This document shows, piece by piece, positions 1 to 1,098 of a DNA stretch of 1,098 bases. Location of the stretch: the NCBI GenBank assembly GCA_000004985.1, contig GG739563.1; one strand, written 5' to 3'. The stretch is from Naegleria gruberi. Taxonomy: Eukaryota. How positions within the stretch are numbered: position 1 is the stretch's first letter; each line of letters begins with the position of its first letter. The notes beneath the pieces are model-generated. The model ran no database searches, was not told the DNA's origin, and saw only the letters and a program-made list of their open reading frames with translations. The position numbers and the translations under genes were made by a program.

Positions 1-20
1 GTTCCAAAATTTTTTCCAGG

Positions 21-74
21 CCTCCTAAAAAAAATACGAAATTGTTTATATGACACAACAGGTCCATAAGTCAC
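21..74 (-). promoter_or_regulatory. Possible minus-strand promoter plus RBS for a gene running leftward off the window
   Basis: On the minus strand, AGGAGG (reverse complement of 21-26) is a consensus Shine-Dalgarno sequence. A -10-like TATAAA (reverse complement of 45-50) lies 18 bp below a -35-like GTGACT (reverse complement of 69-74). No ATG lies within the window; the only candidate start is TTG (reverse complement of 5-7), 13 nt after the SD. Confidence 0.25.
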
Positions 75-117
75 CCTAAAAAAGTCGTGAAAAATGAATA
101 CCCCTGTTGTGTCATAT
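48..117. repeat. Perfect 15-bp inverted repeat ATATGACACAACAGG ... CCTGTTGTGTCATAT with a 40-nt spacer
   Basis: 48-62 is the exact reverse complement of 103-117. It is followed by TTTT (118-120). Candidate operator, cruciform or structured-RNA stem. Confidence 0.7.
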
Positions 118-131
118 TTTGATATTTATTT

Positions 132-191
132 TCGCCTGAATCGCAAGTTACGAAGTAAATGACAACTCCCGAACGGCTGCGATTCAGACGA
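132..191. repeat. Long imperfect inverted repeat or hairpin: inverted half-motif GCCTGAATCGC (134-144) pairs with GCGATTCAG of the 18-mer at 179-187
   Basis: Stem is 132-145 against 178-191, 13 of 14 positions paired (10 contiguous, 136-145 with 178-187), around a 32-nt loop. The reverse complement of 134-144 is gcgattcaggc, identical to 557-567. Confidence 0.6.
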
Positions 192-196
192 TTCCG
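163..196 (+). repeat. 34-bp motif CAACTCCCGAACGGCTGCGATTCAGACGRTTCCG, copy 1 (lies outside the 373-bp repeat)
   Basis: Identical to 461-494 and 834-867 except A191 against G489/G862. Confidence 0.9.
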
Positions 197-258
197 ATGT
201 ACGAACTACTTCTCAACAGTTCCGAAAATAGACAACCATGAAGTCAGAGACCCGAAGT

Positions 259-285
259 GCATGTTTTTGGGTTTTTGAAACATGC
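259..285. repeat. Inverted repeat GCATGTTT ... AAACATGC (8 bp, 11-nt spacer) at the left boundary of the tandem repeat
   Basis: 259-266 is the reverse complement of 278-285. At the unit1/unit2 junction the half-sites are adjacent, forming the palindrome ATGTTTgAAACAT at 644-656. Confidence 0.55.
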
Positions 286-326
286 TCAAAAATCAATTTC
301 TATAAAATAAAATCTTTACAAAAGGT

Positions 327-353
327 TATATAGATAATAGATAGATATATATT
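327..353. repeat. Simple-sequence tract (TATAGATAATAGATAGATATATAT) inside a block that is about 80 bp and over 85% AT; a second copy lies at 700-726
   Basis: ATAGA recurs at 330, 337 and 341. The flanking sequence 288-365 is almost entirely A/T. Confidence 0.7.
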
Positions 354-368
354 CATAAAAATCATTGT

Positions 369-395
369 CAACTTTTGAACGGCTGGGTTCTAGCC
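369..395 (+). repeat. Diverged relative of the 34-bp motif (CAACTtttGAACGGCTGgGtTCtAGcc); a second copy lies at 742-768
   Basis: Shares the core CAACTYYYGAACGGCTG (14 of 17 positions) with 163/461/834. The downstream half resembles CGATTCAG with a 1-nt indel. Confidence 0.6.
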
Positions 396-400
396 ATTTT

Positions 401-409
401 TGATATAAT
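401..409 (+). promoter_or_regulatory. Extended -10 element TGaTATAAT (perfect TGnTATAAT); a second copy lies at 774-782
   Basis: Exact match to the extended -10 consensus. No good -35 upstream, which extended -10 promoters can tolerate. The sequence context is AT-rich, so chance matches are possible. Confidence 0.4.
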
Positions 410-415
410 AGTTAT

Positions 416-443
416 TTGACTATACAATGATATATAATAATAT
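416..443 (+). promoter_or_regulatory. Alternative sigma-A-like promoter: TTGACT (416-421), 16-bp spacer, TAATAT (438-443); a second copy lies at 789-816
   Basis: 5 of 6 match at -35, 4 of 6 at -10 with the key A2 and T6 present. Predicted transcription start near 450. Confidence 0.3.
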
Positions 444-460
444 CAATTTTTTGAGGTACC

Positions 461-494
461 CAACTCCCGAACGGCTGCGATTCAGACGGTTCCG
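461..494 (+). repeat. 34-bp motif copy 2 (inside repeat unit 1)
   Basis: 33/34 identity with 163-196. Contains the 18-mer GCGATTCAGACGGTTCCG at 477-494. Confidence 0.9.
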
Positions 495-548
495 TAATTG
501 CATAATCAATGAATGTATCGCGTAGCTAACGTTTTCACAAATAGAAGT

Positions 549-557
549 GAAGGAGGG
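549..557 (+). promoter_or_regulatory. Shine-Dalgarno-like GAAGGAGGG with no substantial ORF downstream; a second copy lies at 922-930
   Basis: Core AGGAGG at 551-556. The only in-frame start nearby overlaps the SD itself: GTG at 547-549 in unit 1 and ATG at 920-922 in unit 2. It opens a 10-codon ORF, MKEGDSGDSD, that ends at TAA 577-579 (950-952 in unit 2). Confidence 0.35.
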
Positions 558-574
558 CGATTCAGGCGATTCCG
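557..574 (+). promoter_or_regulatory. 18-bp element of two tandem 9-mers GCGATTCAG-GCGATTCCG (candidate protein-binding direct-repeat site or iteron); a second copy lies at 930-947
   Basis: Same 18-mer architecture as 179-196 (GCGATTCAG-ACGATTCCG) and 477-494/850-867 (GCGATTCAG-ACGGTTCCG). The 9-bp internal period holds in every copy. Confidence 0.45.
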
Positions 575-617
575 ATTAAGAGACCGGTGTCCATAGATTT
601 AATTTGATTATAAATAT

Positions 618-643
618 AGTGACTTTCGGAATTCACTTTTTTT
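618..643 (+). terminator. Weak intrinsic-terminator-like hairpin plus T7 run at the end of repeat unit 1; a second copy lies at 991-1016
   Basis: AGTGA (618-622) pairs with TCACT (633-637) around a 10-nt loop, followed by TTTTTTT (637-643). The stem is only 5 bp with 2 GC pairs, so terminator strength is doubtful. Confidence 0.3.
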
Positions 644-833
644 ATGTTTGAAACATGCTCAAAAATCAATTTCTATAAAATAAAATCTTTACAAAAGGTT
701 ATATAGATAATAGATAGATATATATTCATAAAAATCATTGTCAACTTTTGAACGGCTGGGTTCTAGCCATTTTTGATATAATAGTTATTTGACTATACAA
801 TGATATATAATAATATCAATTTTTTGAGGTACC

Positions 834-867
834 CAACTCCCGAACGGCTGCGATTCAGACGGTTCCG
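834..867 (+). repeat. 34-bp motif copy 3 (inside repeat unit 2)
   Basis: Identical to 461-494 (+373). Confidence 0.9.
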
Positions 868-909
868 TAATTGCATAATCAATGAATGTATCGCGTAGCT
901 AACGTTTTC

Positions 910-920
910 AAAAAAAAAAA
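910..920. repeat. A11 homopolymer tract, present only in repeat unit 2
   Basis: Unit 1 has acaaatagaagt at the homologous position 537-548. Four point differences, all to A, separate the two copies. Confidence 0.9.
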
Positions 921-1020
921 TGAAGGAGGGCGATTCAGGCGATTCCGATTAAGAGACCGGTGTCCATAGATTTAATTTGATTATAAATATAGTGACTTTC
1001 GGAATTCACTTTTTTTACAT

Positions 1021-1038
1021 TCGATTTAGACGATTTAA
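1021..1038 (+). promoter_or_regulatory. Degenerate sixth copy of the 18-mer (TCGATTTAG-ACGATTTAA), 6 bp upstream of TATAAT at 1045-1050
   Basis: CGATT at 1022 and 1031 keeps the 9-bp phasing. The same 6-bp gap separates the 18-mer at 477-494 from the -10-like CATAAT at 501-506 (and 850-867 from 874-879). Confidence 0.35.
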
Positions 1039-1044
1039 TGGTAG

Positions 1045-1050
1045 TATAAT
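1045..1050 (+). promoter_or_regulatory. TATAAT -10 hexamer upstream of the terminal ORF
   Basis: Consensus -10 hexamer. The -35 region (1021-1027) matches poorly and is occupied by the degenerate 18-mer. ATG lies 18 nt downstream. Confidence 0.35.
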
Positions 1051-1068
1051 TGAGTATACAGGTCTATT

Positions 1069-1098
1069 ATGAAGAATATATTGGGTAGAAACGGGTTA
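1069..1098 (+). CDS. Possible 5' end of an ORF (MKNILGRNGL...), truncated by the window edge
   Basis: ATG at 1069-1071 with a weak AGG (1060-1062) 6 nt upstream. Only 10 codons are visible, so the product cannot be assigned. Confidence 0.25.
   Translation, partial: MKNILGRNGL

What the first reader, a model, noticed from the sequence alone, without database searches (positions are those of the whole stretch)
274..1019. Near-perfect 373-bp tandem duplication of a non-coding module; the two copies differ only by a clustered all-to-A change that builds an A11 tract
Two head-to-tail copies of 373 bp agree at 367 of 371 aligned positions. All four differences fall within 11 bp and all are X-to-A (c538a, t542a, g544a, g547a), converting acaaatagaagt into an 11-nt poly-A run immediately 5' of the GAAGGAGGG element. 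Four random substitutions would not cluster and point the same way, so this looks like selection, gene conversion or a deliberate alteration. The result is a slippage-prone homopolymer and a changed 5' context for the SD-like element (GTG to ATG) in one copy only. The flanks are unique, so the duplication is recent or maintained.
Basis: seen in the sequence. Interest (0 to 1): 0.6.

Follow-up and report, generated by a model that had tools for sequence, protein, structure and literature searches.

The report
Duplicated spacer repeat on Naegleria rDNA plasmid
The 373-bp tandem duplication is real, but it lies in the repeat-rich non-coding spacer of the circular ribosomal-DNA plasmid of a Naegleria amoeba rather than in a bacterium, and it is an ordinary inherited copy-number variant of a spacer repeat.

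Summary
Units 274-646 and 647-1019 differ only by four X-to-A changes (538, 542, 544, 547), which make an A11 run at 910-920, plus two junction bases.

The window is eukaryotic. [quoted passage not shown] "SD-like" and "GTG to ATG" therefore have no meaning here.

Two independently assembled 13,799-bp circles (L037, L038) carry the same two copies, the same junction and the same A11. They differ from the window at 8 other sites, so the duplication is neither an artefact nor brand new. One unit position (344/717) changed in both copies together, which indicates homogenisation between copies. A close relative (L003) has one copy and looks like a recombinational loss.

A sister lineage has an invariant A14 at the homologous spot in 16 contigs. 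The A-rich tract is therefore old and stable in length, not visibly slippage-prone.

The unit contains the best-conserved island of this NRS stretch, anchored by the motif GAACGGCTG(C/G)G. I infer a Pol I control or origin module, but this is untested. Copy-number variation of NRS repeats is already documented in Naegleria.

The parts
1..273 (+). Left flank, spacer (NRS) DNA. It holds a conserved patch at 6-41, a 15-nt inverted repeat at 48-62/103-117, an inverted half-motif at 132-145, and a full 34-nt M element at 163-196.
   Evidence: Window 6-41 is 92% identical to L001 5758-5793. The flank is collinear with the sister lineage but only patchily similar.
274..646 (+). Tandem unit, copy 1 (373 bp), carrying the interrupted A-rich tract.
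   Evidence: The same copy is present in L037 and L038.
647..1019 (+). Tandem unit, copy 2 (373 bp), carrying the A11 tract.
637..654 (+). Duplication junction TTTTTTT-ATG-TTTGAAAC. The breakpoints lie in T-runs. G646 is not templated by either flank under the simple 373-bp model; it is templated if the event was a 383-bp duplication from 261 followed by a 10-bp deletion. The left boundary lies in a weak GCATGTTT/AAACATGC hairpin.
   Evidence: The junction is identical in L037 and L038, so there was a single origin.
369..402 (+). M' element CAACTTTTGAACGGCTGGGTTCTAGCCATTTTTG. It is repeated at 742-775. The bacterial 'terminator' call at 381-395 is spurious.
   Evidence: It is conserved in L001, and also in L030 (87.5% over 40 nt).
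461..494 (+). M element CAACTCCCGAACGGCTGCGATTCAGACGGTTCCG. It is repeated at 834-867.
   Evidence: The 20-mer CCCGAACGGCTGCGATTCAG is invariant in the window, L001, L015 and L033.
541..574 (+). M-c variant ...GTGAAGGAGGGCGATTCAGGCGATTCCG. It is repeated at 914-947.
360..575 (+). Conserved island of the NRS: M', then an AT-rich stretch of about 55 bp, then M, the A-rich tract and M-c. It is repeated at 733-948.
   Evidence: (72-75% identity over 111-152 nt, in a spacer that is otherwise only patchily similar) and alignment A2.
537..549 (+). Interrupted A-rich tract CACAAATAGAAGT in copy 1.
   Evidence: The same state is in L003 and in L037 copy 1.
910..920 (+). A11 tract in copy 2. It is homologous to the A14 of the sister lineage.
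1021..1036 (+). Degenerate M core TCGATTTAGACGATTT in the right flank.
1020..1098 (+). Right flank of spacer DNA. The 18S gene starts about 1,148 bp beyond the window end.
   Evidence: window end = L037 14114, and the SSU starts at L037 15262.

Best explanation
Identity (shown). The window is part of the non-ribosomal sequence (NRS, the spacer) of a Naegleria clarki-like closed circular extrachromosomal rDNA element (CERE). It has the same orientation as the rRNA genes and lies 1.15-2.25 kb upstream of the 18S gene. The 373-bp tandem duplication is a heritable copy-number variant of an NRS repeat module.

Origin (inferred). It arose once, by unequal exchange or template switching at short T-runs next to a weak hairpin. 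The evidence is that the junction, which includes a base neither flank templates under the simple model, is identical in three sources.

Maintenance (partly shown). The copies are kept alike by gene conversion or unequal crossing-over among the thousands of CERE copies per cell, because unit position 344/717 differs between haplotypes in both copies at once. A copy can be lost again by recombination between the two copies: the L003 single copy is copy-1-like on the left and copy-2-like on the right.

The four X/A differences are two alleles of an old A-rich tract lying between T4 and GGAG(G/A)GG. That tract is a pure A14 in the sister CERE lineage. Which allele is derived is unresolved.

Function (inferred, not shown). 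The unit carries the best-conserved island of this spacer stretch. The island is an array of subrepeats about 80-92 bp long, each anchored by an M element with core GAACGGCTG(C/G)G...GATTCAG. All copies inside the window's array point the way of rRNA transcription, and there is an AT-rich stretch plus a poly(dA) tract. I think it most likely carries cis-elements of the Pol I promoter, upstream control or enhancer region. Less likely, it carries the replication origin or a fork barrier. On either reading the duplication doubles a regulatory module, as spacer-promoter and enhancer repeats do in other rDNAs.
For: Eukaryotic rDNA context. L003 carries SSU, 5.8S and LSU rRNA genes plus a GIR1 branching ribozyme. 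Its intron homing endonuclease is identical to N. clarki CAJ44446.

Circle. L037 repeats with a period of 13,799 bp, and the L038 ends overlap by 127 nt.

Placement. Window 1-1098 matches L037 13017-14114 at 99.27% with no gaps, and the SSU starts at 15262.

Shared haplotype. L037 and L038 have the same junction, the same A11 in copy 2 and the same interrupted tract in copy 1. They differ from the window at 8 other sites, including 344 and 717 together.

Single-copy relative. L003 is 99% identical, carries the interrupted tract, and has T at unit position 628, like L037 copy 2.

The sister lineage (L001 type) is single-copy and collinear with the window. It has A14 at the homologous site in 16 contigs.

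Conserved motif. GAACGGCTG occurs 2-4 times per CERE in 4 of 5 lineages, against 0.1 expected by chance, and always in the NRS. Ten of the 13 copies are on the rRNA-sense strand. GCGATTCAGRCGRTTC occurs 5 times in the window against 0 expected.

NRS repeat copy number is generally labile. The 119-bp array has 5.4 copies in L003 and 2.4 in L037.

Literature. N. australiensis has a repeat of about 360 bp whose copy number was in question (PMC10586121). N. fowleri isolates differ by one unit of about 167 nt (PMC11075319). 65% of the N. fowleri NRS is repeats (PMC7714845). N. gruberi NRS repeats reach 371 bp (PMC5805870).
Against: No transcription start site, origin or protein-binding data exist for this species, so the functional step rests only on position and conservation. 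SNP density across 15 sister-lineage contigs shows no step that would mark a promoter. Matches to the yeast ARS consensus are at chance level. The claim that L003 lost a copy rests on one informative site (628/1001) and on clock-like rooting of three haplotypes. L037 and L038 come from consecutive JGI sample numbers and may not be fully independent of each other. Short-read assemblers could in principle swap which copy carries A11.
Confidence: 0.85

Rival explanations
1. One reading: a bacterial non-coding module in which a slippage-prone A11 homopolymer next to a Shine-Dalgarno-like element acts as a phase-variable or engineered switch.
For: AT-rich sequence with promoter-like and terminator-like consensus hits. 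GAAGGAGGG resembles a Shine-Dalgarno sequence.
Against: Promoter-like hits are at chance level: 7 found against 5.4 +/- 2.5 expected. There is no blastn match in phages or plasmids, and the motif 20-mer has no exact match in 185,579 prokaryotic genomes. The sequence is physically linked to eukaryotic 18S/5.8S/28S genes on a Naegleria CERE. No ORF longer than 39 aa is present. The tract length is invariant in every source: A11 in three, A14 in sixteen.
Confidence: 0.01
2. Assembly artefact: a single-copy region carrying two alleles was mis-threaded into a tandem duplication.
For: CEREs are present at about 4,000 copies per cell and NRS repeats are known to confound assemblers (PMC7714845; PMC10586121). 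Apart from the junction bases, the two copies differ only in the 10-nt cluster.
Against: The junction sequence TTTTTTTATGTTTGAAAC contains k-mers that are absent from the single-copy form, so it must be supported by reads. The same junction and the same order of alleles are found in two further assemblies, which differ from the window at 8 sites.
Confidence: 0.04
3. The single copy (L003) is ancestral. The duplication arose later in the ancestor of the window and L037, and copy 2 then acquired four substitutions to A in one mutational event, such as dislocation or template-switch mutagenesis in an A-rich context, or a short-patch conversion.
For: The outgroup L001 type is single-copy. The interrupted allele is shared by L003 and copy 1. 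Outside the cluster the copies are 100% identical in the window.
Against: This model needs an extra substitution and a reversal at unit position 628, where the outgroup has G, L003 has T, and L037 has G in copy 1 and T in copy 2. L037 and L003 are closer to each other than either is to the window. No donor sequence with both flanks matching was found among the A runs of the CERE.
Confidence: 0.3
4. The duplication is selectively neutral spacer turnover. The module has no function of its own, and the conserved island reflects slow decay or concerted evolution rather than constraint.
For: 65% of the N. fowleri NRS is repeats and the NRS varies widely between species (PMC7714845). Other arrays vary in copy number between near-identical CEREs. 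One- and two-copy forms both exist.
Against: The GAACGGCTG(C/G)G core is retained in 4 of 5 diverged lineages, in an NRS that otherwise aligns only in patches. The 20-mer is invariant across the window, L001, L015 and L033. The A14 length is invariant although SNPs occur beside it.
Confidence: 0.35

Closest known systems
Tandem and direct repeats of the Naegleria CERE non-ribosomal sequence: the N. australiensis repeat of about 360 bp, the N. fowleri 168-bp tandem repeat, and the N. gruberi EGB repeats of 34-371 bp
   Same: Same genus-level element, same compartment (NRS) and a similar unit size (about 360-373 bp). Copy number differs between strains or between sequencing runs (PMC10586121; PMC11075319; PMC7714845; PMC5805870).
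   Different: Sequence homology to those repeats could not be tested, because their sequences are not in the searchable collections. This instance is in an N. clarki-like lineage. It has a defined junction, evidence of homogenisation between copies, and a fixed four-base allelic difference between the copies.
Tetrahymena thermophila rDNA 5' non-transcribed spacer, tandem 430-bp Domains 1 and 2 (from my own knowledge, not from a tool)
   Same: A tandem duplication of a few hundred bp, upstream of the rRNA gene on an extrachromosomal rDNA. It carries reiterated A-rich cis-elements that also occur nearer the promoter.
   Different: In Tetrahymena each domain is a mapped replication origin with Type I elements. 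Here no origin or promoter has been mapped, there is no sequence similarity, and one-copy forms exist.
Spacer promoters and enhancer sub-repeats of rDNA intergenic spacers: Xenopus 60/81-bp repeats, Drosophila 240-bp repeats, mouse 140-bp repeats (from my own knowledge)
   Same: Arrays of sub-repeats upstream of the gene, oriented with it, each carrying a short conserved factor-binding core. They evolve by unequal crossing-over and concerted evolution, and copy number is polymorphic.
   Different: The defining property, similarity to a mapped gene promoter and Pol I initiation or enhancement, cannot be tested here, because the Naegleria Pol I promoter is unknown.

Membership tests
Naegleria CERE non-ribosomal-sequence repeat | Physically linked to a single 18S-5.8S-28S cistron | tested here: met
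   Rfam hits for SSU, 5.8S and LSU on L003 and L037. The window maps to L037 13017-14114 at 99.27%.
Naegleria CERE non-ribosomal-sequence repeat | The element is a circle of about 14 kb | tested here: met
   L037 repeats with a period of 13,799 bp (genes at 736 and 14535, SSU at 1463 and 15262). The L038 ends overlap by 127 nt.
Naegleria CERE non-ribosomal-sequence repeat | Naegleria origin | tested here: met
   The intron homing endonuclease encoded on L003 equals N. clarki CAJ44446.1. The nearest other homologues are all Naegleria. A GIR1 ribozyme is present. L037 itself lacks the intron, so its assignment rests on 98-99.6% NRS identity to L003.
Naegleria CERE non-ribosomal-sequence repeat | Lies outside the rRNA genes, is repeated, and varies in copy number among strains | tested here: met
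   It lies 1.15-2.25 kb upstream of the 18S gene. There are two units in the window, L037 and L038 and one in L003.
Bacterial phase-variable homopolymer or SD-containing leader | Prokaryotic genome context with a downstream ORF whose expression depends on the tract | tested here: not met
   Eukaryotic rDNA plasmid. No ORF exceeds 39 aa. No blastn match in phages or plasmids, and no exact match of the motif 20-mer in prokaryotic genomes.
Bacterial phase-variable homopolymer or SD-containing leader | Tract length varies between isolates | tested here: not met
   A11 in the window, L037 and L038. A14 in 16 of 16 sister-lineage contigs.
rDNA spacer promoter or enhancer repeats (Pol I) | Upstream of the gene, in the same orientation, in the spacer, as reiterated sub-repeats | tested here: met
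   The M elements at 163, 369, 461, 541 (plus 742, 834, 914) and 1021 are all on the + strand, spaced 80-92 bp within the array. They lie upstream of the 18S gene.
rDNA spacer promoter or enhancer repeats (Pol I) | Sequence similarity to the mapped gene promoter, and Pol I initiation or stimulation | not testable with these tools
   A full-text search found no paper mapping a Naegleria Pol I promoter or start site. No transcript data were available.
Duplicated replication-origin domains (Tetrahymena D1/D2 type) | Origin activity in each repeat | not testable with these tools
   For Naegleria only a 2.1-kb origin-containing NRS fragment in N. gruberi is known (PMC13315211). ARS-consensus hits are at chance level.
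Known structured RNA families (Rfam) | Covariance-model match or significant folding | tested here: not met
   The best Rfam hit scores 14 bits against a gathering score of 80. The unit folds no better than shuffled sequence, z = 0.16. No tRNA was found.

The most novel reading that the evidence does not exclude
The conserved island inside the unit (M', an AT-rich stretch, M, a poly(dA) tract and M-c) may be the so far unmapped core control region of the Naegleria CERE: the Pol I promoter or upstream element, the single replication origin, or both. The two-copy haplotype would then carry two functional modules, as Tetrahymena's D1/D2 domains do. On this reading the pure A11 versus interrupted-tract difference is kept by selection, for example as a nucleosome-excluding poly(dA:dT) in the gene-proximal copy, even though gene conversion homogenises the rest of the unit.
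Probability: 0.2. Interest if true: 0.55.

Novelty: new member of a known kind. Interest (0 to 1): 0.25.

Why it matters
The main result is corrective. A feature that reads like a bacterial regulatory switch is ordinary turnover of a spacer repeat on a protist rDNA plasmid.

There is modest added value for Naegleria biology. [quoted passage not shown] The conserved GAACGGCTG(C/G)G / CCCGAACGGCTGCGATTCAG element and its neighbouring A tract, found 1.2-1.7 kb upstream of the 18S gene in several lineages, give a concrete candidate to test. That is relevant to building CERE-based vectors.

The three haplotypes also give a small, clean example of gain and loss of a repeat unit, and of homogenisation between copies, on a multicopy extrachromosomal element.

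Tried and rejected
- Rfam scan at permissive E-values: only a 14-bit chance hit. tRNA scan: nothing.
- Bacterial promoter and terminator scan: at or near chance, and irrelevant in a eukaryote.
- blastn against phages and plasmids: no match.
- Exact 20-mer scans of prokaryotic genomes and viral contigs: no match.
- Alternative genetic codes, tried to explain the lack of ORFs on the related contigs: no code restored coding density. The real reason was rDNA plus spacer.
- Exact look-ups of three small window ORFs, including one spanning the junction: not on record.
- About 25 intron-endonuclease-anchored contigs: all turned out to be the sister (L001-type) spacer or too short. The window-type two-copy circles were reached only through the NRS endonuclease-like ORF.
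- Search for a donor of the A11 tract among all A/T runs of 8 or more on the CERE: no run has both flanks matching.
- SNP-density profile of 15 sister-lineage contigs, to look for a promoter or ETS boundary: no clear step.
- Yeast ARS consensus: at chance level.
- RNA folding of the unit (z = 0.16) and DNA hairpins at the left boundary and at the junction (z = -0.46 and -1.77): not convincing.
- The Mullican 2019 origin-mapping paper could not be read.
Full report
**1. The observation**

The tandem duplication is real. TRF finds a single array at 274-1017 with period 373, 2.0 copies, 98% matches and no indels. The repeat finder agrees.

Comparing 274-646 with 647-1019 base by base gives six mismatches:
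- C538A, T542A, G544A and G547A, which build an A11 run at 910-920;
- the last two bases of each unit, 645-646 TG versus 1018-1019 CA, which belong to the junction.

Four random differences among 371 sites would fall within 10 nt with probability about 3e-5.

A 34-nt element, CAACTCCCGAACGGCTGCGATTCAGACGRTTCCG, occurs at 163, 461 and 834. Diverged versions lie at 369, 541, 742 and 914. A degenerate core lies at 1021 and an inverted half at 132-145. The core GCGATTCAGRCGRTTC occurs 5 times against 0 expected.

**2. What the sequence is**

Nothing prokaryotic matched.
- There was no Rfam family and no tRNA.
- Promoter-like hits were at chance level.
- blastn found no match in phages or plasmids.
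- The motif 20-mer had no exact match in 185,579 prokaryotic genomes or in viral contigs.

The same 20-mer did hit three metagenome contigs. One of them, L003 (VFQN01005947.1, 14.4 kb), is 99% identical to the window but holds only one 373-bp unit.

L003 has almost no ORFs under any genetic code. The reason is that it is a eukaryotic rDNA unit. It carries SSU, 5.8S and LSU rRNA genes plus a GIR1 branching ribozyme and a His-Cys-box homing endonuclease. That endonuclease is identical to a Naegleria clarki protein (CAJ44446), and all its close homologues are from Naegleria.

[quoted passage not shown] The window is therefore NRS. It reads in the same direction as the rRNA genes and ends about 1,148 bp upstream of the 18S gene. 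The terms 'SD-like element', 'GTG to ATG' and the terminator-like hairpin have no meaning in this context.

**3. Relatives with the same arrangement**

I used the endonuclease-like ORF in the NRS as a handle and recovered L037 and L038 from two JGI metagenomes.
- L037 repeats itself with a period of 13,799 bp.
- The ends of L038 overlap by 127 nt, giving the same circle size.
- Their 18S gene has no intron.

Both contain the window's full arrangement. Window 1-1098 matches L037 13017-14114 at 99.27% with no gaps. Both have the identical junction TTTTTTTATGTTTGAAAC, the interrupted tract in copy 1 and A11 in copy 2.

They differ from the window at eight other sites: 67, 84, 209, 344, 717, 1001, 1037 and 1071. 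Three conclusions follow.
- The duplication is not an assembly artefact. The junction needs its own reads, and it recurs in independent assemblies.
- It arose once, and it predates the divergence of these haplotypes.
- The A11 run has not changed length in any of them.

**4. Dynamics**

Sites 344 and 717 are the same position in the two units. The window has G at both, and L037 has T at both. With a single origin of the duplication, this needs homogenisation between the copies, by gene conversion or by cycles of unequal crossing-over. That is classic concerted evolution of rDNA spacers.

L003, the single-copy form, shares the flanking haplotype of L037: 67A, 84A, 209A, 344T and 1071A. It carries the interrupted tract, like copy 1. 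At unit position 628 it has T, as L037 copy 2 does, whereas L037 copy 1 has G. The sister lineage also appears to have G there.

The simplest reading is that L003 lost one unit by recombination between the copies, with the crossover between unit positions 547 and 628. This rests on one informative site and on clock-like rooting. I therefore keep the alternative alive at about 0.3: that the single copy is ancestral and the duplication came later.

The 119-bp array elsewhere in the NRS behaves the same way, with 5.4 copies in L003 and 2.4 in L037. Together with the 18S intron, these repeat copy numbers are the large structural differences between the two elements.

The literature documents the same behaviour:
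- a repeat of about 360 bp whose copy number was in question in N. australiensis (PMC10586121);
- a one-unit difference of about 167 nt between N. fowleri isolates (PMC11075319);
- repeats of 34 to 371 bp in N. gruberi (PMC5805870).

**5. The A tract**

A second N. clarki-like CERE lineage (the L001 type) has a spacer that is collinear with the whole window but much diverged. Roughly 50-65% of aligned positions match in the MAFFT alignments, with well-conserved patches.

At exactly the position of the four differences this lineage reads TTTT-A14-GGAGAGGG. The window reads TTTTC-A11-TGAAGGAGGG in copy 2 and TTTTC-ACAAATAGAAG-TGAAGGAGGG in copy 1.

The A14 is identical in 16 contigs from many sequencing runs, although SNPs occur a few bases away. 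A more distant lineage, L033, has TTTT-GGAG with no A run.

So an A-rich tract at this site is old within the N. clarki group and is stable in length. If the interrupted state is older, a single multi-base event in an A-rich context is needed, such as dislocation or template-switch mutagenesis or a short-patch conversion. I found no donor sequence with both flanks matching. Which allele is derived remains open.

The difference has survived in both two-copy lineages while another site was homogenised. That observation is compatible with selection but does not establish it.

**6. How the duplication arose**

Both breakpoints lie in T-runs: T5 at 272-276 and T7 at 637-643 and 1010-1016. The left breakpoint sits inside a weak hairpin, GCATGTTT...AAACATGC.

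The junction has one base (G646) that neither flank templates under the simple 373-bp model. It can also be read as a 383-bp duplication starting at 261, followed by a 10-bp deletion. This points to microhomology-mediated template switching or unequal exchange. The hairpin energies are not significant, so this step is inference.

**7. What the module probably does**

This part is inferred, not shown.

The unit contains the best-conserved island of this stretch of spacer. Window 337-487 is 72-75% identical to the L001 type. The 20-mer CCCGAACGGCTGCGATTCAG is invariant in the window, L001, L015 and L033.

The 9-mer GAACGGCTG occurs 2-4 times per CERE in four of five Naegleria lineages, against 0.1 expected. 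It is always in the NRS, and 10 of the 13 copies are on the rRNA-sense strand. Most lie 1.2-2.6 kb upstream of the 18S gene.

The elements form a degenerate array of about 80-92 bp (369, 461, 541, about 632), with an AT-rich stretch of 13-20% GC and the poly(dA) tract.

By analogy with spacer promoters and enhancer repeats in other rDNAs, and with the duplicated origin domains of the Tetrahymena rDNA minichromosome (my own knowledge), I think a Pol I control module is the most likely role. An origin or fork-barrier role is second.

The evidence against is real:
- SNP density shows no promoter or ETS boundary;
- ARS-consensus hits are at chance level;
- the unit has no RNA structure signal;
- one-copy circles exist, so the second copy is dispensable.

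A full-text search found no paper that maps a Naegleria Pol I promoter. For the origin, only a 2.1-kb fragment in N. gruberi is known (PMC13315211).

**8. Verdict**

In its biological framing it is wrong: the sequence is not prokaryotic, there is no SD element, the homopolymer shows no length variation, and nothing was engineered.

The feature is a new instance of a known kind, namely copy-number variation and concerted evolution of NRS repeats on Naegleria CEREs. Interest is low to moderate. The useful by-product is a concrete conserved motif, with its A tract, as a candidate for the unmapped control region of the CERE.

Noticed in passing
L003 13282-14434 versus L037 1463-3482: CEREs with 98-99.6% identical spacers differ in whether the 18S twin-ribozyme intron is present. 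L003 has the GIR1 ribozyme plus a homing endonuclease. L037 and L038 have an uninterrupted 2,020-nt 18S gene. This is an intron presence/absence polymorphism within one CERE lineage.
   Followed up: partly
L003 6341-7408 (-) = L037 7861-8916 (+): A free-standing ORF of 351-355 aa in the spacer, shortly downstream of the 28S gene, has a His-Cys-box homing-endonuclease domain (PF05551, E = 1e-26). It is intact in L003, L037 and L038. N. gruberi is reported to have only a pseudogene-like relic at that place (PMC5805870).
   Followed up: partly
L003 5658-6298 versus L037 8960-9243: A 119-bp tandem array has 5.4 copies in L003 and 2.4 in L037, and a 118-bp array has 3.1 copies in L001. This offsets the 373-bp difference, so the two spacers have nearly the same length, 8,005 versus 7,998 bp.
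   Followed up: partly
window 48-62 / 103-117; L003 1815-1843, 3485-3513, 5405-5433: A perfect 15-nt inverted repeat, ATATGACACAACAGG / CCTGTTGTGTCATAT, has 40 nt between its arms. The arm motif TGTTGTGTCATAT is dispersed three times in the L003 spacer.
   Followed up: no
window 6-41; L001 5758-5793: The patch AAAATTTTTTCCAGGCCTCCTAAAAAAAATACGAAA is 92% identical between the two diverged N. clarki-like spacer types. In both it sits about 330-350 bp upstream of the conserved island.
   Followed up: no
L002 and L003 (both from assembly GCA_006365155.1): Both spacer types, window-type and L001-type, occur in the same metagenome assembly. Two CERE lineages therefore co-occur in one sample. Whether they share a cell is unknown. 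This is relevant to a possible conversion source for the A tract.
   Followed up: no
L001 6313-6326 and the homologous site in L002, L005, L006, L009-L012, L014, L015, L020-L023 and L025: The A14 run is identical in length in 16 contigs from different sequencing runs, although SNPs lie within 10-30 bp of it. This is unexpectedly stable for a 14-nt homopolymer.
   Followed up: yes
L030 4754, 5711, 6028; L033 4537; absent from L034: The core GAACGGCTG(G/C)G is shared by N. andersoni-like and other Naegleria CERE lineages in the spacer upstream of the 18S gene. It is absent from one lineage, L034.
   Followed up: partly
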